Assembly (NCBI GenBank): GCA_017499595.2
Contig: CM039002.1
Location: 1,550,001 to 1,614,000 of the forward strand
Source of the DNA: Psilocybe cubensis
Taxonomy: Eukaryota
Length of the DNA: 64,000 nt
Direction: 5' to 3'
In this document: in pieces, positions 14,628 to 23,319 of the stretch
How positions within the stretch are numbered: the stretch's first letter is position 1
How the letters are laid out: each line of letters opens with the position of its first letter
The notes under the pieces: generated by a model
What the model saw: only the letters and a program-made list of their open reading frames with translations
Database searches by the model: none
What the model was told of the DNA's origin: nothing
Position numbers and translations under genes: made by a program

Positions 14628-17600
14628 ATGTCCAACTCTTACAATATGGGCCAACAGTGGAACCAGTCCCAGCTCAACTTTTCGTCCCTTCAGCTCGAGC
14701 AGGACTACGAGTTTGCTGCTAACGAATCTCGCCAGCAGCAGCAGCAGCAGCAGATGCTTCATCAGCAACAGCAGCAGGCGTATGCCTCCAGCAATGCATA
14801 TCACAATCAGTATTCCCAGCAGCAGCAACAGCAACAGCAACAACAGGTCCAAAATCCAAATGCCCACTCATCGTCTCTCATGGGTGCCTTCTCCAACCCA
14901 CTCAGCCAGCAGCATTCGCACAGCCGTTCATCGTCCTTTGGCGCTGCCCAATCGGGCCAAAATTCAATGAGCGGTGCGTACGCTGGTCTCTACGGTGCCC
15001 AAGCTACTGGCCCGCCTTCTAATGGCGCCAACGGACCTTATCGCCAGCCTACCTCTTCGGCCTTTACCTTCTCACCCCCAAGCGGCATCCCGATGTCGCT
15101 GCAGAATAATTTATCGGATGTCAGCCAAGGAGGCAGCCCGAGTTATCTAACTTCGTCCCCCGGTCCGCTGCACGAGTCCTTTTCCCCGCCTTCATCCTCC
15201 TCTCAACTCCAGCAAACCTATTTCAACGCAAACGATACCTCTGGGGCTCCTCAACCTAAAAGGCATCACGGATCAGCTTTCAAAGACGAGTCAGCGATCG
15301 AAGACCCAGACTCGGAGGTTGGCCAATCAGATACTAAGGATAAGCAGTCCAAATTGTCAGTGTTACTTCTATCTTGCTGTATTATCTTATTGATGGAAGG
15401 AAATATAGGTCCAGGGCGTGTGCGCGGTGCAAAAACCTCAAAGTTAGATGAGATGTGAAGCTAAGACGGAGACCGAGCCTTGCAAGCGCTGCTTCAATGG
15501 TGGGCATGAGTGTGTTATTCCCGGGAGGAAGATTCGTCGTACGCCACCGTGAGTTCCACCTTGATCCCTGCATTCTCTCGTTTTCTAAAGGATTCATACA
15601 ATGCAAACGTAAAAACTCGATACTGTAGGAAACGGGAGCATCTCCTCAACCAGATCCAGGCCCAGGCAAAGGAGATCGAAAGGTTAATGCACCAGCTCGA
15701 AAAGGTCACCATTTCATCCAATCAGCCTCGTAATGCCGGTATGGATACTTCTACGGGCGTAAACCTCTCCTCCCCCGTGTTAACTCCCTCGTCCAACTCC
15801 GGCTCCTTCTTTGGTTCGGATGTGCCCGGGGACGAAGCAGGCGGTGACGAGCACGGTGGTGCGAATGGGAACGGCAGCAACAATGTCGTAATGAACAAGG
15901 CCGTCGAGGAGTGGATCGCCAAAGCGCGCGAAAGTTTGCATGAATTTGGCGCGTTCATCGGCATTGGCGGCGCGGGTATGCCGAAGCGCTATCTTGTCGA
16001 GGAGGACTATGAGGGTGGTGACGACTCAGATGACGATGAGGAGTATGTTGATGCCTCGGACGAGGCACTGGCCGAAGCCTTCGGGAACGGCGATGAAAGA
16101 TACGAAGTTACGGTGGACAACGCGCCCGGAGACGCCTCTGGCTCGTCTAATCCCGAACAGGGAGGCAGAATATTGAATCACAAGAGCTCTAGCTCTAGCA
16201 TCGGCACAGTTGCGACGGCAAATACACAACAGCGCAAGAAGAATTCTGGTGAGAATGCAAAACCGGTCAATTTGCCTGTTGGCGCTGCGCCGTTTGGCCT
16301 TTTTGGAGAACTCAGTTTGAAGAACCCTGTAAGCCGCGCGGGTAGCGCGGAACCTGAAGACGAGGATCGAGGATCGGGCATTGCGAACGCCAATTTCTTC
16401 AAGTCGAGTGAGTTTGTTTTACTGTTTCTTTACGTTTCAATAATTCTGATTACAATGAAGCTCTTGCACCTCAGGCTTTGGGGCGTAGGCTGGAAGTTGC
16501 CCAGCACCAAGCACCATCCATTCTTACTCGGGGAATCATCACACCTTTGGAGGCCGAGAAATTGTTCAAAATGTACGGGCTTTACTCCACAGAGATTAAA
16601 GAATCTGGCTAAAAATGTCTTATCACTTTTTCTAGCTATTTTGACAACATGAATCTTTCCGTGTCACTGCTCGACCCAGTCCTGTACACTGCGCAGCGTA
16701 CATTCTATCGAAGCCCCTTTTTGTTTACAGTTAGTGAGTATTCGGCTCTCCGTATGTTTTTATCTTCCCAGTGCTAATCTATTTGTGGGCAATCAGTTTG
16801 TGCTGTGGCCTCCAGGTTCTATTTTGAGCGTCCCGATCTCTACGCGAAGTGCATGCACTATGCACAGTGGGCTGCCGGTACAGCTCTCATTGGCGGAAAC
16901 AAAAATGTGGAGATGTGTTCTGCATACATCCTGCTGAGTTTGTACCCCGTACCTGCGAAGAAATGGGAGGACCAACGCAGTTGGCTGTACCTTGGGCTGG
17001 CTATTCGGTACGGATTTTTTTAAAATTTCTCTCTGTCTTTTTTTTTTATCATTAATGGCGGTACTATCTCTGTTTCTTTTTTCCAGTGTGGCTACCGACA
17101 TTAATTTGCACGTTCCCACATCTGCGAAACCTCTCAATGAGAATCACGCGCGGGAGATGCTGAACCGCACCCGTGTTTGGCTGAACTGCTTCAACCTTGA
17201 CCGGTCCACGGGTTCGCAGTATGGTAAACCACCCATCATCAGCTCATCGGATTATATCGCGAACAATTCACCGAAATGGTGGAACTCGTCGCCGCACAAT
17301 ATGCCAAACTTTGATATCCACATTTCGGCGTATAATGCAGAGTTGCGGGTCATGTCGAGCTTTATTGCGAAAGTTTACAGTGATCCGTTACACCCTACTA
17401 ACTTGAACAAGGTATATTTTTTCTTTGCTTAATTTTCTTTCTTGTATTTGACTGACTTTTGTTTAGAACATCGACTTCGAAAAAATTGCCATTGAGACAG
17501 ATGACGAGCTACAGGTTCTACGTGATCAATGGTTCTCAGTGCTCGAGACGACCGACATGAACGACCCACACAATCGCTTCAGGACTGGGCTGCTGCGATT

Positions 17601-18789
17601 GGCGTACAGCTATGCCAGGTTGATCGCCTTGTCATATGGCTTCCAGCATGCGTTTGGAAAGACAGATAGGGTCAACGAGAACCCATTCCTTGAGCGGGTC
17701 AGCATTTTTTACGCATAGCCGGTTGGTTTTTCTTGGTCGCTGACTTACTGTTATCTTTTGATAGTGCTTGCGAGCTGCTTTCGACGTTGTTGACGCTCTC
17801 GTCAGCGATATTTGCCGGCCGGGACAGCGTATGTTCACCTTGACATTTTTTCGCATTAGGCTTTGGGTTGCTGATGAGCTCTAATCAGTCCATTTCGTGA
17901 AACATGGACCGGAAGCTCAGAGCGTCTTTGTCACTTTTGCGTCTGCTTTCCTTGTCAAGGTGCGATATGGCGCAATGTTACCCCCTCGCTCGCCCATTCA
18001 TTGTCTTTTAGCTTCTCCAACCAAGATTTACCACCTATCTTACACCGGAGACTCGAGCAAAGATTCGTAGTCAGGTACAAAAAGTCGCCGACCTCCTTGG
18101 CTCGCCCGAAGTTGCTATCGATGAGCGACACGGTCCCAAGTTGTACTCTCGTTTCCTCGAGAAGCTCCTAGCCAAACCCATGGCCAGCCTCGATCCCATG
18201 TCCCCCGGATCCACCGCCAGCTCGACCGTTCCTCTTCCCCGCCAGAAATCGCGCACATATAGGTCACCACCCCCGGCCACAACATCCACTAACATGGCCA
18301 CCCACTCGGGCTACGCATCCAACTATGACGCCCCTTCAAACGTGTTCACTCACCCTTCGCCGTCGACGAGCAACTCGCTCTCGCCGCCACCCACCGAGTC
18401 CGCGCTGTCATTCGACAACTTTGCGCCGGCGGGACCGATTGACCCGTATGTGCCCCAGACGGGGCCGATGAACGCGCTGAACGTCAATCCGACGGATAGC
18501 GTGGTGACTGGAGGGAATGTGATGATGAACGAGTTCTTCCAGCCGCCGTTGCCGTTTGATGATCATATCATGCAGAGTATGCAGTCCCTGACTGATCCTA
18601 GTGGATGGCAGGATATTTCCTTGCCTGGTAAGTTGTCGAGGCTTTTTGATTGTGATTCTTTTCACTCATCGAACCTTATCTGTAGTTGGATTCAACTGGA
18701 TGGCACAGTTCCAGGAAAACCTTGGTCTTGATCTTCAAGGAATGGCTTATGATCAAAGCATGGATTATATGACCGGGCCTAGCAACTAA
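14628..18789 (+). pseudogene. Zn(II)2Cys6 fungal transcription factor with middle-homology region; frame disrupted inside the zinc cluster in this sequence
   Basis: Poly-Q N-terminus; CARCKNLKVR/CEAKTETEPCKRCFNGGHEC cluster; later NRTRVWLNCFNLDRS motif; AGATG duplication at 15446-15455 creates TGA at 15449-15451; the remaining exons look intact. Confidence 0.75.
14733..14846 (+). repeat. CAG/CAA trinucleotide tracts encoding poly-glutamine
   Basis: Three runs of CAG/CAA in the first exon of the TF. Confidence 0.9.
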
Positions 18790-19127
18790 TTGTCTTTTTC
18801 TCTCTTCTCTCCATCTTTCCTATTTTCTTTTGTGTACGTGGTATGGTCAATGTCCCCCTTTTTTGTTCATTAATTTATGCACAACCTCCAGATAACTGTC
18901 ATGGATGACTGCCGCTGGATCTCTTTCTTATATCTCATCTGTTTCCACTACCATCTCTTCTGCTTGATACCTTATATCTTCTCTTCGGCGGATACTACCC
19001 ATATATCACTTCAATGTATGTATGCCTTGTAAATCTCTCGAAAGTAAAGACTAGAAAAAAGCTTGTATTCCCCCCAAAAGTCAGAAGTTGCTTAACTTGA
19101 CAATAAAAAAAAGATATATTATGGTTC

Positions 19128-20600
19128 GATGTTCTCACGCACTAACCACCACCATCAACATGGTCAGCGTGCCAGCTCACCGGCCCCGCTGCTGGGTACA
19201 CGGCGACAGCGCTCTCCAGACTCAACCCCAGGCCCAACAGAGTCAGAGAGTGATGGCCGAAAGCTGCTACAGACCAAGAGGTCACCCCATACGAAGCGCC
19301 TTATAAAGAAAGGCAGAACTCACCCTCGGAAATCAGTGGATGCCCCTCTGGGTCCCTCTCCACAGCACTCTGTCAACACACCCATACCATTGGCGGACCC
19401 ACACAGTGCCCCAAACACCGATGCTGCACCCCCATCTACTCTGCCCCCGCCAGCTGTGTCTTCGGACATTGTTGCCGGACAGGTTGCTCACCTCGAGACT
19501 CTGCTGGACTCCATTCTGGCAACGGTCGCGATTATACAGAGCATTTCTCACGGTACCGTCACACTCAGTGACCGAACGATGCACGCCGCTCTGCTGCTAC
19601 ACTCAACCTTATTCCCGGCAGACCCGGAATGTCACCCCCAAAACCCTGAAAGGGTTACTGAGCCCCGGTCATATGCTACGGTGGCCAAAACTACACTAGT
19701 GGCTCAGCCAGCCCACACGCCGCAGAGGACATCCCCAGCCCCAATTGCTGGAGGCCCTGTTAAGACCCGCCCTCACGTCACTCGTCCAACCCGCCATTAT
19801 TCCTCAAATAATCGCCTTATTGCATCCTGGGATGACTTTCCACTTACACAGCCATCTGGTCCACTCACTGATTTTGTGGAGCGACTCAATAGCGAGCTCT
19901 CGCCAATGTCACGGGACCCCCCTCGTCATGTTCTCGGAGCTAATGTCTCAAAATCAGGAAGGCTCATTATCCACACTGCAAACGACACTAGAACTGCTAG
20001 AATAAAAGCTCGCCCGATGACCATTCTTCAAGCAGCTCAGGCCTCCGATTGCTTTCCTAATTTTGATTCAACTATTGGTGACCCACCCACAGTTCACTCG
20101 GATGTGCCATGGCATGGTATAGTGGTCCATGATCTCCCAGCTGATTCACTTCGCGACTCTTTTGACTCCGCCACTCCAAAAAACAGCATATGGTCATTAC
20201 TTGAAAATGAGGCAGGGGTATCTAGGCAGGATATCCGAGGGCAAATACGGGCTCTTTGTCGCGATGGGGAGGAGTTCCAGAAGGACCGACTTTCTATTCT
20301 CATTAGGTTTGAAGACAAGAACATCACAGAACGGCTCTATCACTCTGGCATTTTTCTCTTTGGCTCCTGGTGTCGAGTCTCTCGATATCGGGAGCGGAAG
20401 AGGAAACCTCAACCTTCAACTCCAACACCCCACGCAGAAAACACCATGCCGCAATAAATGTTAGTAATCTCTCATAAGCAACACTTCTTATTCCTTTACA
20501 CAGTACACATGGAACAGTAGGATTACAACCTATATAGAGAAACTGTAATGGTAGTACTAAGCCAAGGGAGGGGCCCACCCCTCAGAGGCTATAACATAAA

Positions 20601-20634
<34 letters not shown>
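19128..20634 (+). mobile_element. Non-autonomous non-LTR retroelement carrying only an ORF1-like gene
   Basis: Direct repeat ATATTATGGTTC at 19116-19127 and 20635-20646; A run 20603-20635; intronless ORF inside; no RT or endonuclease coding sequence. Confidence 0.9.
19129..20457 (+). CDS. LINE ORF1/gag-like nucleic-acid-binding protein, 442 aa
   Basis: Intronless ORF in an intron-rich genome; basic disordered N-terminus; SKSGRLIIHT, PWHGIVVHDLP and GIFLFGSWCRVSRY resemble fungal LINE ORF1 segments; no CCHC knuckle. Confidence 0.65.
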   Translation: MFSRTNHHHQHGQRASSPAPLLGTRRQRSPDSTPGPTESESDGRKLLQTKRSPHTKRLIKKGRTHPRKSVDAPLGPSPQHSVNTPIPLADPHSAPNTDAAPPSTLPPPAVSSDIVAGQVAHLETLLDSILATVAIIQSISHGTVTLSDRTMHAALLLHSTLFPADPECHPQNPERVTEPRSYATVAKTTLVAQPAHTPQRTSPAPIAGGPVKTRPHVTRPTRHYSSNNRLIASWDDFPLTQPSGPLTDFVERLNSELSPMSRDPPRHVLGANVSKSGRLIIHTANDTRTARIKARPMTILQAAQASDCFPNFDSTIGDPPTVHSDVPWHGIVVHDLPADSLRDSFDSATPKNSIWSLLENEAGVSRQDIRGQIRALCRDGEEFQKDRLSILIRFEDKNITERLYHSGIFLFGSWCRVSRYRERKRKPQPSTPTPHAENTMPQ

Positions 20635-20638
<4 letters not shown>

Positions 20639-20738
20639 TATGGTTCCTTGGAACTGGTACATGAAAATGCAAGTGCCGATAATCAATAGCATATAAAATT
20701 ATGTTACATCTTGGAAGTTGTCGACACTAATCAAGACT

Positions 20739-23319
20739 TTACAGTCTCACGTCCTTGGGCATTGCCCTAAGTGCTTGCCGCACACCGAGATCTGCAAGAA
20801 CGTCTTCGGCACCTCCCAGCAGTGCGTCGAAGGGAATTGTGCGGTGATACTAAATTCAGTAAAGGTCAGTCCAATAGGAAAAACCCATAAGTCGGAAGCA
20901 AAGTGCACGAACGTGTTCAATGAATTTGCCCATTCCCGTTTGAGTGATTCCACGCCCGCCAAAGACCTGGACAGCATCTCTTGCAGTGTCTTGCCCACAG
21001 CTTGTGGAGTAGCTCTTCAATAAAGCGATTTGGCTAAAAATGGACAGTCATCAGTGATTGTGCTCAACAATTCGCGGTAGTTGTATTTACCCGGCAAGCT
21101 TTCCAGCTTGTTGTTTGTACGACTAGAAATAGGGTGGAGCGTGAGGAAATATCCTGGGTCGCCCTGAATACAGCTTTGACGTACCATATTGCACATCTGA
21201 TACGTGATATTCTCGAGCCAACTTTGGACACCTGGGAATAGGTATAGTTCAAAAAATGACATGTGAAGATATCGGTGAAAAGTCTTACTTTCTGCCCGCG
21301 ATATCATCCCCGCGAGCTTCGAGCGAATGACGGCCTGCGAGTGCAGGGGCTTTCCGAAGACTTTGCGCTGCGTGGTCCACCTGAAACGTAGATGAGACGT
21401 AATCCCCGTTGAACTCTGACATCGGCGACTCACTTCAGACACTCCTCGACTAGAAAAAGAATAAGAGGATACATTTTAGGCAGACTTCGATGCAAATGAG
21501 ATAAAGAGAACGCACTGATGCCCCTCTGGCTCCTTGCAGAAGCGCAACACATGACCCATCGCTCGTGGTTGAAGTTGCTGTGAGCCAATAGATCAGCAAC
21601 TTCTCAACTACAGTGAGGCAATGCCATGGATGGACTGGTACATACCTGAGGATGACAAAAATACCTCCGCCTTCTTCACCCAGTGTGTTGCCAATTGGCG
21701 CTCTTACGTTATCGAAGGTGATGTATGCAGTACCAGCAGTTGTCGAATAGCTGGTTTTAATCTGCTTGGTTTCAACACCTGGACCACGCTCTACCAGAAT
21801 GACGGTAAATCCGTCCTCAGTCTTGCAGCCCACAGTGAAGTAATCGGCAAATCTAATTTTGCATATGGGTCAACATTTGGTAAAGTGTTGAAAAGATAAA
21901 ATAGAACTTACGTTCCGTTAGTGATCCACTTCTTAGTTCCTAAGTTGAAATGTGGATCAGAAGACTACACCAGAACCACAACAGAAACCCGTACCGTTGA
22001 TAATCCACTCCTTTCCATCTTCTGATTTAACAGCAGTTGTTTGCAAGCCCATAACATCGCTTCCTGCGTGTGCCTCTGAGATAGCAAGACAGATGAACTT
22101 CTTGCCGCTCAAAACTTCGGGTACGACTTTCGCTTTAAGCTCTTCGCTGCCAAAATTGAGGACTGGAGGAAGCCCAATAACCTTGCCACCCATGAGACCT
22201 ACACTACGTGAGAACAAATAACACGGTATGGGGAAAGATAGCAGCGCACCATCACCGTAGCCTCGTAGACTTGATCTTGCGAATTCTTGGGTAATGATCA
22301 ACTAGTAGGATGTGGGCAACGGTGAGTGTGGTGGGTTGGTGGCAACCGAGAAAATCCGTACCTCGTGGAAGTAGTCGAATGTCTCAGGCGTTACAAGACC
22401 GTCCATTAGAATGCGACCTTGGAGGTGTTTACCAGGCCCTAGACGCATGGCATGGATGTTCAGAGCACTAGGGAAAAGGTGGAATTGACGCTCAGTTTAT
22501 TATTACATTGACTTTCGAAGACAGGATTGGCGACATACGTCATTTTGTCAATAACGCTCTGCGATGGTCGTTTCCCATCTGCTTCACGGTCCTGTGGTGG
22601 TGGTGGTAAGCCTCTTTGCTACAAAAAATTGTATGCGAAAACACTAACGAGAGCATCCTGATACACAACTTCATCGAAGAACCGCCGAACGGCCTTCTGG
22701 AAGATCCTATGTCCCTAAAAACAGGAACCACGGATTTAACTTCGCGCAAGCATCAAGGGGTAAGGATGTTAAGGACCTCAGTGTAGTAAGGGCTATGATA
22801 ACCATCAGAGAGCCACGTAGGCTCAGCATAAGGAACTTTGCTGAGCTCCCCTGCAACCCGACCGTGGATATGAGGCTCCTCTCCGTCGATCTGACCGATG
22901 CGCAATCGTTGATATTGAGGTCTCTGGAGGACTTCGTAACGATGAAGGCTGAAGAATGCCTCGGTGGCGTCTTGTCCAGCTAATTGAAAGTGCCCACTTC
23001 AGATCAAGCTACGACCTTCAATAGACGAGTTGACTGACCGATTTCTGGGTCCAAGAGCACGGAAAGACCTCCGGGATGCATGGCTTTGAACTTGCTTAGG
23101 TCGTAGACCACCGCATCGATGATAATCCACTGAATAACCGACTGTGAGTGTATGTTTCAGAAACCGGTTCACCGAGGCGACACTTGCCAAATCATCGGGT
23201 TGGTTGTGCTGTACATTGAACACAGAAATTTAGAAACCTAGGCAGACATGATCCGGAAGTGTCTGACGTACCTTGCCAACCTCTTCCTTTGAGATTCGTT
23301 TGAGTTGTGTAGAGGCCAT
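20739..23319 (-). CDS. Acyl-CoA dehydrogenase with N-terminal cytochrome b5 domain, copy 2 (multi-exon)
   Basis: ATG at 23319 (MASTQLKRISKEEVGK); [46 protein letters not shown]; ends MPKDVRL*. Confidence 0.9.

What the first reader, a model, noticed from the sequence alone, without database searches (positions are those of the whole stretch)
19116..20646. Candidate fungal 'half-LINE': ORF1-only retroelement with perfect TSD and poly(A)
Seen: a 1.5 kb unit flanked by identical ATATTATGGTTC repeats and ending in an uninterrupted 33-A run. It is filled by one intact intronless 442-aa ORF plus a ~145-nt 3' UTR, with no RT or endonuclease. Known: TSD plus poly(A) is the signature of target-primed reverse transcription. 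Ordinary LINE truncation removes the 5' end (ORF1) and keeps ORF2, the opposite of this structure. ORF1-only HAL1 elements are a precedent in animals. Inference: a recently active non-autonomous family that encodes its own RNP chaperone and borrows RT in trans.
Basis: partly seen in the sequence, partly recalled or inferred. Interest (0 to 1): 0.85.

Follow-up and report, generated by a model that had tools for sequence, protein, structure and literature searches.

The report
Mushroom retroelement carrying only an RNA-binding gene
This is a real, recently inserted copy of a small mobile element of mushroom-forming fungi that carries one RNA-binding protein gene and no reverse transcriptase, so it must borrow its copying enzyme from another element that has not yet been found.

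Summary
The 12-nt repeats, the 33-A run, the intact 442-aa ORF and the 145-nt 3' UTR are all as described.

The unit is a mobile element of Psilocybe cubensis:
- about 7 copies per genome by read depth;
- gene models at 7 loci on 5 contigs;
- a precise empty site, with one repeat copy, in another strain.

It belongs to a large Pfam-less family: 420 clusters, named members all Agaricales. In 9 of 12 testable elements I found 10-13 nt target duplications (TSDs).

Shared features of the family:
- a poly(A) tail behind AATAAA;
- a covarying 3' stem-loop;
- a 27-nt 5' end that starts at the ATG and is conserved as nucleotides;
- an ORF under purifying selection (omega 0.2-0.4).

The protein models as a disordered N-terminus, helices and two RRM domains. 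No RT or endonuclease appears in the element, the window, 36 related loci or 148 relatives.

Not shown: homology to any LINE ORF1, where only fold and architecture agree, and the RT donor. Reads show that other P. cubensis sequences share only the last ~50 nt.

Verdict: an ORF1-only, non-autonomous poly(A) retroelement, a fungal analogue of HAL1 and HeT-A.

The parts
19116..19127 (+). 5' copy of the target-site duplication ATATTATGGTTC
   Evidence: The empty-site contig in run X8 keeps one copy (table 8, record 9).
19128..19128 (+). one extra G between the TSD and the ATG (5' junction base)
   Evidence: In the relatives, 0-6 mostly G-rich extra bases sit at the same place.
19129..19155 (+). 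27-nt 5'-terminal motif starting with the ATG, conserved as nucleotide sequence (candidate internal initiator/promoter)
   Evidence: 20 of the first 26 alignment positions are invariant in 17 elements. Third-codon-position identity is 0.87 here against 0.43 downstream. L014 and L015 keep the bases after a +1 insertion that changes the peptide. Read loose ends at 19127/19128 show that the copies start here.
19129..20457 (+). single intronless ORF, 442 aa plus stop, with no Pfam family
   Evidence: Omega is 0.20-0.41. Among the listed copy variants, 16 are synonymous and 13 non-synonymous.
19459..19611 (+). codons 111-161: two predicted helices after a disordered N-terminus (aa 1-110)
   Evidence: helices 111-139 and 148-161, pLDDT 70-84
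19801..20103 (+). codons 225-325: first RRM-like domain
   Evidence: U2AF65 RRM1, Z 8.5, rmsd 2.9, 80 aligned; tandem-RRM chains, E 5e-6
20104..20397 (+). codons 326-423: second RRM-like domain
   Evidence: La and TRMT2A RRMs at Z 7.3-7.4. Human L1 ORF1p RRM 2w7a_B scores Z 6.3 at rank 43, which is not distinctive.
20458..20602 (+). 3' UTR, 145 nt
20551..20602 (+). terminal ~50 nt that other, otherwise unlike, P. cubensis sequences also carry (candidate RT-recognition tail)
   Evidence: table 7. Loose ends 'before' 20551/20552 number 46+38 reads in X13 and 51+53 in X14. In X1 they sit on 7 contigs (20551-20554), and in X8 on 1 contig.
20560..20590 (+). 3' stem-loop: AGCC/GGCT outer stem and GAGGGG/CCCCTC inner stem with loop CCCA
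   Evidence: On 23 tails, 93.8% of cells pair against 40-53% with slid partners. 24 cells changed on both sides against 6.6 in shuffles (0 of 500). 4 of 8 pairs are compensatory.
20600..20605 (+). AATAAA polyadenylation signal overlapping the start of the A-run
   Evidence: In relatives it lies about 9-14 nt before the poly(A).
20603..20634 (+). poly(A) tail, 32-33 A
20635..20646 (+). 3' copy of the target-site duplication

Best explanation
window:19128-20634 is one young, polymorphic copy of a non-autonomous non-LTR (poly(A)) retrotransposon family of Psilocybe cubensis and other Agaricales.

Shown:
- The unit is repeated about 7 times.
- The copies share the same first base and the same 3' end.
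- The unit is flanked by a 12-nt TSD and is absent, leaving one TSD copy, in another strain.
- It encodes a single constrained protein predicted to carry two RRM domains, and no RT or endonuclease.
- Relatives in other fungi have the same anatomy.

Inferred mechanism:
1. RNA polymerase II starts at, or one base before, the A of the ATG. It is directed by the 27-nt internal 5' motif, and the transcript is cleaved and polyadenylated behind AATAAA.
2. The protein binds its own RNA to form an RNP.
3. An endonuclease/RT made by an autonomous LINE in the same genome is recruited. Tad1, Inkcap, Deceiver and L1 clades are reported in Agaricales. Recruitment is probably through the conserved 3' stem-loop plus the poly(A).
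4. That enzyme nicks the bottom strand at a T|A step.
5. The poly(A) is primed on the nicked strand, and the whole RNA is copied.
6. The second nick falls 10-13 bp away, which gives the TSD.
For: TSD, poly(A) and ORF are as described.

Copy number:
- Element-to-flank depth is 261.5/36.9 = 7.1 in X13 and 239.2/34.6 = 6.9 in X14. These are my means of the table 2 bins.
- Gene models lie at 7 loci on 5 Mb-sized contigs, 84-99% identical to the window's protein.

Uniform 5' end: loose ends 'before' 19127/19128 number 37+110 reads in X13 and 27+100 in X14.

Empty site:
- X8 record 9 runs 18892-19127 and then 20647-20849 at adjacent record positions 1018/1017.
- The same record skips six introns with GT..AG or CT..AC ends, so it derives from RNA.
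- X1 record 1 spans the filled junction 18400-19157 with 0 differences.

Family: 13 near-length homologues, 420 representative clusters at E<=1e-3 and 36 metagenome loci.

TSDs of 10-13 nt were found in 9 of 12 testable elements: the window, L008, L013, L014, L015, L016, L021, L022 and L031. The ATG lies 0-6 nt after the TSD. The TSD is preceded by A or TA in most.

The 3' stem-loop covaries, and AATAAA sits before the poly(A).

Purifying selection: omega is 0.20-0.41 in the 10 pairs with dS 0.14-1.07. Among the 29 listed variants, 16 are synonymous and 13 non-synonymous, against a 1:2 transition expectation.

Fold: tandem RRMs.

No RT or endonuclease.

LINE clades in Agaricales: passages of PMC9674265 and PMC3411680.
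Against: - No RT-bearing partner was identified, because no genome is held.
- The tail-sharing sequences in the reads could be diverged members of the same family rather than a LINE.
- No sequence similarity to any LINE ORF1. Pfam is empty for the window's protein. 0 of 138 relatives have any family. Among 10 long relatives, only host-gene domains appear. The best PDB sequence match has E 0.24.
- The RRM fold is very common, and L1 ORF1p ranks only 43rd.
- An AUG at the very 5' end is hard to reconcile with cap-dependent scanning.
- Depth is flat along the element (300 in the first full bin, 296 in the last, X13). 5'-truncated copies, usual for LINE-driven insertion, are therefore rare among the young copies.
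- TSDs were not found in L002 and L005, and only 6 nt in L006.
Confidence: 0.8

Rival explanations
1. By-product of a full LINE. Each copy is a retrotransposed, prematurely polyadenylated ORF1-only transcript of an autonomous LINE that carries the same ORF1. The copies would then not be a self-propagating lineage.
For: Premature polyadenylation of LINE transcripts is known (recalled). HAL1 arose from L1 several times (passage of PMC5753468). The P. cubensis genome could not be searched for a full-length element.
Against: - No locus with sequence downstream of the ORF has an ORF of 250 aa or more carrying RT. Examples are L005, L008, L015, L016, L028 and L031, with 2-10 kb of downstream sequence.
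- All 23 conserved tails lie directly behind the ORF.
- The tail and the 5' motif are kept between lineages whose dS is saturated. This points to long independent propagation.
- No RT fusion appears among 148 scanned relatives or in the two 'longer' searches.
Confidence: 0.08
2. Host gene family with retrocopies. A cellular RRM protein gene has mRNA that is occasionally retroposed by LINEs, giving processed pseudogenes or retrogenes.
For: The ORF is intact, constrained and transcribed. The X8 contig record 10 has word depth 128, against 92 for the neighbouring genes. Annotators call the copies 'hypothetical protein'.
Against: - No intron-bearing member was seen among 36 loci.
- 9 of 12 testable elements from different fungi have their own TSDs.
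- The copies start at the same base, which is the ATG itself. This is not expected of host mRNAs.
- The 5' and 3' ends are conserved as nucleotides or as structure, which is typical of cis-acting transposition signals.
- There are about 7 near-identical copies, with presence/absence polymorphism.
Confidence: 0.05
3. Endogenised gene of a polyadenylated RNA virus (for example a mycovirus nucleoprotein), copied into the genome by LINE machinery.
For: It is a single ORF with short UTRs. Several homologues sit on 1.2-1.9 kb contigs that could be transcripts.
Against: - No viral family or polymerase partner was found.
- The 3' motif scan of viral contigs gave 0 hits.
- Repeated independent insertions with TSDs occur in many fungi.
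- AATAAA-driven polyadenylation and long-term purifying selection inside genomes fit a resident retroelement.
Confidence: 0.02

Closest known systems
HAL1 ('half-L1') of mammals
   Same: A non-autonomous LINE-type element that encodes only ORF1p and depends on an RT supplied in trans (passage of PMC5753468). Like this element it has poly(A) and TSD anatomy.
   Different: HAL1 ORF1 is recognisably L1 ORF1, and HAL1 arose repeatedly from L1. Here no parent LINE or ORF1 homology is shown. The protein has two RRM-like domains, with no match to the L1 ORF1 family in Pfam. The host is a basidiomycete. The family looks long-lived: 420 clusters, with saturated dS between lineages.
HeT-A and other ORF1-only telomeric Jockey-clade elements of Drosophila
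   Same: These are ORF1-only lineages that persist and give rise to further ORF1-only lineages while using ORF2 proteins of other elements (passages of PMC13534243).
   Different: They are telomere-specialised, head-to-tail arrays, and their gag-like ORF1 has an MHR plus CCHC knuckles. Here the insertions are dispersed with TSDs in gene-rich DNA, and there is no CCHC. [quoted passage not shown]
LINE/SINE pairs of the 'stringent' type, which share a 3' stem-loop
   Same: A conserved, covarying stem-loop lies just before the tail. In P. cubensis only the last ~50 nt is shared with other repeats. Recognition of a 3' UTR stem-loop by the RT of stringent-type LINEs is stated in the abstract start of PMC5135761 (listing).
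   Different: This element is 1.5 kb and protein-coding, and has a Pol II poly(A) signal. It is not a short Pol III SINE. The partner is unknown.
EKA (AVRk1/AVRa10) family of Blumeria graminis
   Same: A fungal multi-copy family made of LINE ORF1 sequence without ORF2 (passages of PMC4641428).
   Different: EKA members are truncated ORF1 copies of known full LINEs (Satine, Kryze) with a CCHC-type domain in the parent. They are proposed to be co-opted as effectors. Here the ORF is whole, the unit has its own termini, and no parent LINE is known.
MarorLINE-6 of Marasmius oreades
   Same: An active Agaricales LINE-type element without an RT domain, thought to use the RT of a related family (passages of PMC9674265).
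   Different: No protein domains were found in its insertions, and their 5' ends varied in length. No ORF1-only design is described.

Membership tests
Non-LTR (TPRT-type) retroelement insertion | 3' poly(A) directly abutting a target-site duplication of variable sequence | tested here: met
   The same holds in 8 relatives, each with a different TSD.
Non-LTR (TPRT-type) retroelement insertion | an empty allele with exactly one TSD copy | tested here: met
   X8 record 9 joins 19127 to 20647 (table 8)
Non-LTR (TPRT-type) retroelement insertion | no long terminal direct repeats | tested here: met
   The direct-repeat scan of the window shows only the A-run at the element's ends. Inverted repeats were not scanned.
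Autonomous LINE | encodes a reverse transcriptase, with or without an endonuclease | tested here: not met
   Pfam finds none in the ORF. There is no other long ORF in the unit. None lies in the flanks of the window or in the 36 loci.
ORF1-only LINE derivative (HAL1 / HeT-A kind) | a single ORF, multi-copy, each copy with its own TSD | tested here: met
ORF1-only LINE derivative (HAL1 / HeT-A kind) | the ORF is homologous to the ORF1 of an autonomous LINE | tested here: inconclusive
   No sequence match was found. The fold is a tandem RRM. The nearest named language-model clusters are the arthropod families DUF4780, PRE_C2HC and zf-CCHC, at 0.76-0.89, which are leads only. No fungal LINE ORF1 was available to compare.
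ORF1-only LINE derivative (HAL1 / HeT-A kind) | shares a terminus with its autonomous partner | tested here: inconclusive
   Other sequences in P. cubensis reads share only 20551-20602. Their nature is unknown because no genome is held.
LINE ORF1p type I (RRM plus CCHC; passage of PMC4120745) | at least one RRM | tested here: met
   Two RRM-like domains, aa 225-325 and 326-423. This is a predicted structure.
LINE ORF1p type I (RRM plus CCHC; passage of PMC4120745) | a CCHC zinc knuckle directly after the RRM | tested here: not met
   zf-CCHC was not found in the window's protein or in 0 of 148 relatives. The protein ends about 20 residues after RRM2.
LINE ORF1p type II (L1-like: coiled coil, one RRM, CTD; passage of PMC4120745) | a match to the L1 ORF1 family (Transposase_22/PF02994, so named in PMC4120745) | tested here: not met
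   No Pfam hit at E<=10. The L1 ORF1p RRM scores only Z 6.3 at rank 43.
LINE ORF1p type II (L1-like: coiled coil, one RRM, CTD; passage of PMC4120745) | an N-terminal coiled coil that multimerises | tested here: inconclusive
   Helices 111-139 and 148-161 are predicted. Whether they multimerise is not known.
SINE | short, non-coding, with a Pol III head | tested here: not met
   The unit is 1.5 kb and coding. No tRNA, 5S or 7SL match came from Rfam. An AATAAA signal is present.
Processed pseudogene of a host gene | an intron-containing parent gene elsewhere in the genome | not testable with these tools
   No genome is held. None of the 36 related loci shows an interrupted member with introns.

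The most novel reading that the evidence does not exclude
The element belongs to an old, self-sustaining lineage of ORF1-only retrotransposons spread through Agaricales, not to a recurrent by-product of a LINE. Its RNA would start at its own AUG, under a 27-nt internal initiator that overlaps the first nine codons, giving an effectively leaderless mRNA. It would capture a foreign RT through a covarying 3' stem-loop. The tail-sharing repeats seen in P. cubensis reads may be the RT-carrying half of a two-component system. That would make it the first dispersed, long-lived ORF1-only lineage described outside animals.
Probability: 0.4. Interest if true: 0.75.

Novelty: new variant of a known kind. 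Interest (0 to 1): 0.6.

Why it matters
ORF1-only LINE parasites are known from mammals (HAL1) and from Drosophila telomeres (HeT-A). My five literature searches found no fungal case. A widespread fungal family would matter in three ways:

- It would show that keeping the RNA-binding gene while outsourcing the RT is a recurrent, stable strategy.
- It would give a compact 1.5-kb system, with a defined 27-nt head and a 31-nt stem-loop, for asking what a LINE RT recognises. It would also test whether ORF1-type proteins act in cis.
- It raises a concrete question about translating an mRNA whose AUG sits at the 5' end.

In practice, these copies are annotated as 'hypothetical proteins' and are fused to host genes in gene models, so they contaminate mushroom proteomes. 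The insertion polymorphism also offers strain markers.

Tried and rejected
- **Own genome:** not held, so no BLASTN census and no partner search was possible. I used read depth and protein clusters instead.
- **Earlier findings of this scan:** nothing on this genome or this protein.
- **5' self-cleaving ribozyme, as in R2 or RTE (recalled):** Rfam gave only two chance-level rows, with no ribozyme. RNAalifold found no conserved 5' structure, just 4 invariant pairs at -1.6 kcal/mol. Rejected.
- **Trimer test of residues 105-165, three copies:** no verdict (score 0.02). Not used either way.
- **RNA holders:** 'no RNA holder listed' by the look-up of sequencing runs. X8 was treated as RNA only because its contig lacks six introns.
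- **Stand-alone tails:** the covariance model found no tail outside the elements in the window and the 36 loci. All 23 of 23 hits lie behind the ORF.
- **Viral contigs:** the stem-loop pattern gave 0 hits.
- **Fused ORF1-RT forms:** the 'longer' searches gave 0 hits and then 1 hit, a Mycena PKS/P450 fusion model.
- **Profile against PDB chain sequences:** nothing, best E 0.24.
- **Language-model atlas:** DUF4780 and PRE_C2HC at 0.85-0.89, kept as leads only.
- **5'-truncated relatives:** a TSD search in L019, L025, L027, L028, L034, L036 and L017 gave nothing convincing.
- **Whether X13/X14 carry this particular insertion:** could not be read. One joint row was dropped at the masked A-run.
Full report
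**1. The observation**

ATATTATGGTTC stands at 19116-19127 and 20635-20646 and nowhere else in the window. Shuffles expect 0.01 matches, and 0 of 100 shuffles gave two. The run of 33 A is 20603-20635, and its last A is also the first base of the 3' repeat. The ORF is 19129-20457, 442 aa, and the 3' UTR is 145 nt. Pfam finds no RT or endonuclease. Only G19128 lies between the 5' repeat and the ATG, so the unit has no 5' UTR.

**2. It is a repeated, recently mobile unit**

No genome is held for this window. I therefore used protein clusters and public reads.

*Protein clusters.* The protein tools name the organism Psilocybe cubensis. The 90% cluster holds 8 sequences, and a second cluster lies at 84% identity. 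Together they give gene models at 7 loci on 5 Mb-sized contigs, 84-99% identical to the window's protein.

*Read depth.* Laying two raw DNA runs on 18400-21400 gives element-to-flank depth of 261.5/36.9 = 7.1 (X13) and 239.2/34.6 = 6.9 (X14). These are my means of the table 2 bins, with reads at least 90% alike.

*Edges.* The edges of the repeat are sharp. Loose ends 'before' 19127/19128 number 37+110 reads in X13 and 27+100 in X14. The copies therefore begin at the same base. Depth is flat from the first full bin (300) to the last (296), so young copies are mostly full length.

*Empty site.* Contig record 9 of run X8 covers 18892-19127 and then 20647-20849 at adjacent record positions. That is the empty site with a single repeat copy. 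The same record lacks six introns with GT..AG or CT..AC ends, so it derives from RNA of a strain without this insertion. Run X1 has the filled junction, 18400-19157 with 0 differences, but X1 may be the window's own sample.

*Expression.* X8 also holds a 2804-nt contig of the element, 14 differences, word depth 128 against 92 for the neighbouring genes. The family is therefore very probably transcribed. The contig runs on 1346 nt upstream into unlike sequence.

*This copy.* It differs from the majority of copies at about ten sites and by a 6-nt deletion behind 20416. It is young but not the newest.

**3. The family elsewhere**

- A near-length search found 13 homologues. The named ones are Cyclocybe aegerita at 43%, Flammula alnicola at 38% and Mycena galericulata at 26%.
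- A profile search of all representatives found 420 clusters at E<=1e-3, 287 of them at <=1e-10.
- A metagenome scan gave 36 loci.
- Of the 12 elements, the window's included, that have both ends and flanks, 9 have TSDs of 10-13 nt: the window, L008, L013, L014, L015, L016, L021, L022 and L031.
- L006 has only 6 nt. L002 and L005 have none.
- In all nine, the ATG lies 0-6 nt after the TSD. The extra bases are g, gggga, a, gaact, none, gag, tg, gg and aggggc.
- Most TSDs are preceded by A or TA, which implies a bottom-strand nick at T|A.
- The elements are 1.07-1.69 kb from the ATG to the end of the A-run. Their ORFs are about 410-460 aa.

**4. Cis elements**

*3' end.* All tails carry a stem-loop of 4+4 pairs followed by AATAAA about 9-14 nt before the poly(A). 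A covariance model found 23 tails, every one directly behind its ORF and none elsewhere in 220 kb.

| Measure on the 23 tails | Observed | Control |
|---|---|---|
| Cells that pair | 93.8% | 40-53% with slid partners |
| Cells changed on both sides | 24 | 6.6 in shuffles (0 of 500 reach 24) |
| Pairs with compensatory change | 4 of 8 | - |

The alignment was fitted to the model, which favours the structure.

*5' end.* 20 of the first 26 positions are invariant in 17 elements. Third-codon-position identity is 0.87 in codons 2-9 and 0.43 in the next 30 codons. L014 and L015 carry one extra C after the ATG. This turns MFSRSNHHH into MLLTVEPPP but keeps the bases. The constraint is therefore on nucleotides. 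Distant members still start with M[FI]S[RL]SNHHHQ-like peptides.

I read the head as an internal initiator or promoter, as recalled for jockey and the I factor. I read the G-rich junction bases as non-templated or cap-related additions, as recalled for L1. A 5' ribozyme is not supported. How an AUG at the 5' end is translated remains unexplained.

**5. The protein**

- The model has mean pLDDT 66. Residues 1-110 and 165-224 are disordered, and helices span 111-139 and 148-161. Two alpha/beta domains span 225-420 with pLDDT of about 73-95.
- Foldseek matches tandem-RRM chains: IMP3 RRM12 at E 5e-6, then U2AF65, UP1, HuR and PABP.
- VIA-align gives U2AF65 RRM1 at Z 8.5 on 225-325, and RRMs at Z about 7 on 324-423. 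Human L1 ORF1p RRM scores Z 6.3 at rank 43, no better than other RRMs.
- Sequence methods find nothing: Pfam, the profile against PDB chains, and 0 of 138 relatives with any Pfam family.
- Ten long relatives are fusions to host genes (NmrA, F-box, NTPase-like) or have no domain.
- There is no CCHC knuckle and no match to the L1 ORF1 family. The protein therefore fits neither type I nor type II ORF1p, as those types are defined in a passage of PMC4120745.
- The nearest named language-model clusters are the arthropod families DUF4780, PRE_C2HC and zf-CCHC at 0.76-0.89. I recall these as insect retroelement gag-type domains. They are leads only.
- Selection: omega is 0.20-0.41 in the 10 pairs with dS 0.14-1.07. 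Among the 29 best-supported ORF variants between P. cubensis copies, 16 are synonymous and 13 non-synonymous. Transitions alone would give 1:2. 93 further variant places were not shown.

**6. No RT, and the partner**

- No ORF of 250 aa or more with RT or endonuclease lies in the window or in the 36 loci. Several of those loci have 2-10 kb downstream of the ORF.
- The 'longer' searches gave 0 hits and then 1 hit, a PKS/P450 fusion model.
- The one lead is in the reads. Sequences that are unlike the element upstream join it at 20551/20552: 46+38 reads in X13, 51+53 in X14, 7 contigs in X1 and 1 in X8. Some other repeats in P. cubensis therefore share just the stem-loop tail.
- Those repeats may be the RT-bearing partner or diverged relatives. 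I could not tell which.
- Tad1, Inkcap, Deceiver and L1 LINEs are reported in Agaricales, and some are active (passages of PMC9674265 and PMC3411680).

**7. Comparison and novelty**

The closest kinds are these:
- HAL1, which is ORF1-only and arose repeatedly from L1 (passage of PMC5753468; Bao and Jurka 2010 seen only as its reference);
- ORF1-only telomeric Jockey elements such as HeT-A (passages of PMC13534243);
- stringent LINE/SINE pairs that share a 3' stem-loop (abstract start of PMC5135761 in the listing);
- the Blumeria EKA family, derived from LINE ORF1 (passages of PMC4641428).

Five literature searches found no fungal ORF1-only retroelement. Repbase and Dfam could not be consulted, so prior cataloguing is not excluded.

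I file it as a new variant of a known kind: an ORF1-only non-autonomous poly(A) retroelement. It works like HAL1 or HeT-A, but membership in 'LINE ORF1 derivatives' is unproven.

**8. Verdict**

The step from 'RNA-binding ORF in a poly(A) retroelement' to 'half of a LINE' is still inference, and the RT donor is still missing. Confidence in the non-autonomous retroelement reading is 0.8, and interest is 0.6.

Noticed in passing
window:19129-20457 compared with the other P. cubensis copies: Differences between copies are almost all transitions. In X13 the counts are C>T 41, G>A 42 and T>C 22, with every other type at 3 or fewer. By my reading of the contexts printed, 17 of the 29 listed ORF variants are CpG to TpG or CpA changes. 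This looks like deamination of methylated CpG in transposon copies.
   Followed up: partly
window:18970-20750: The element sits in the roughly 260-bp gap between two convergent genes. Upstream on the + strand is a gene with a weak Fungal_trans match (16938-17432, E 1e-4). Downstream on the - strand is an acyl-CoA dehydrogenase-like gene. An AATAAA at 19097-19102 lies just before the insertion point. In X8 a single RNA contig spans both genes across the empty site.
   Followed up: partly
window:1135-3095 and 20898-22858: Two stretches about 19.76 kb apart are 70-85% alike in pieces (D9-D20). They look like paralogous acyl-CoA dehydrogenase-like genes on the - strand.
   Followed up: partly
window:31646-36554: Three tandem units of about 1.7-2.0 kb are 68-85% alike (D1-D8), with ORFs on the - strand. 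No Pfam family was found for their longest ORFs.
   Followed up: partly
L014:62-211 and L015:7004-7153: This lineage has one extra C right after the ATG. Its N-terminal ~50 residues are read in another frame (MLLTVEPPPP...), and the protein rejoins the family sequence later. The ORF stays open.
   Followed up: partly
proteins P0017, P0020, P0036, P0143, P0161, P0169: Public gene models fuse the element's ORF to host genes: DUF6533, NmrA-like, F-box, NTPase-like and PKS/P450. These are annotation artefacts of insertions in or beside genes.
   Followed up: partly
window:19143-20585 as seen in run X8: The RNA-derived contig of the element (2804 nt) continues 1346 nt upstream into sequence unlike the window. 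At least one copy is therefore part of a longer, read-through or chimeric transcript (record 10).
   Followed up: no
window:19972-20186 and 20102 as seen in runs X13 and X14: A few reads show a joint that goes back 215 nt (20186 to 19972). In X13, 17 reads leave the element at 20102. Some copies therefore carry an internal duplication or an interruption (tables 5 and 7).
   Followed up: no
window:14732-14846: A CAG/CAA-rich (polyglutamine-type) repeat lies inside the upstream gene (D13).
   Followed up: no
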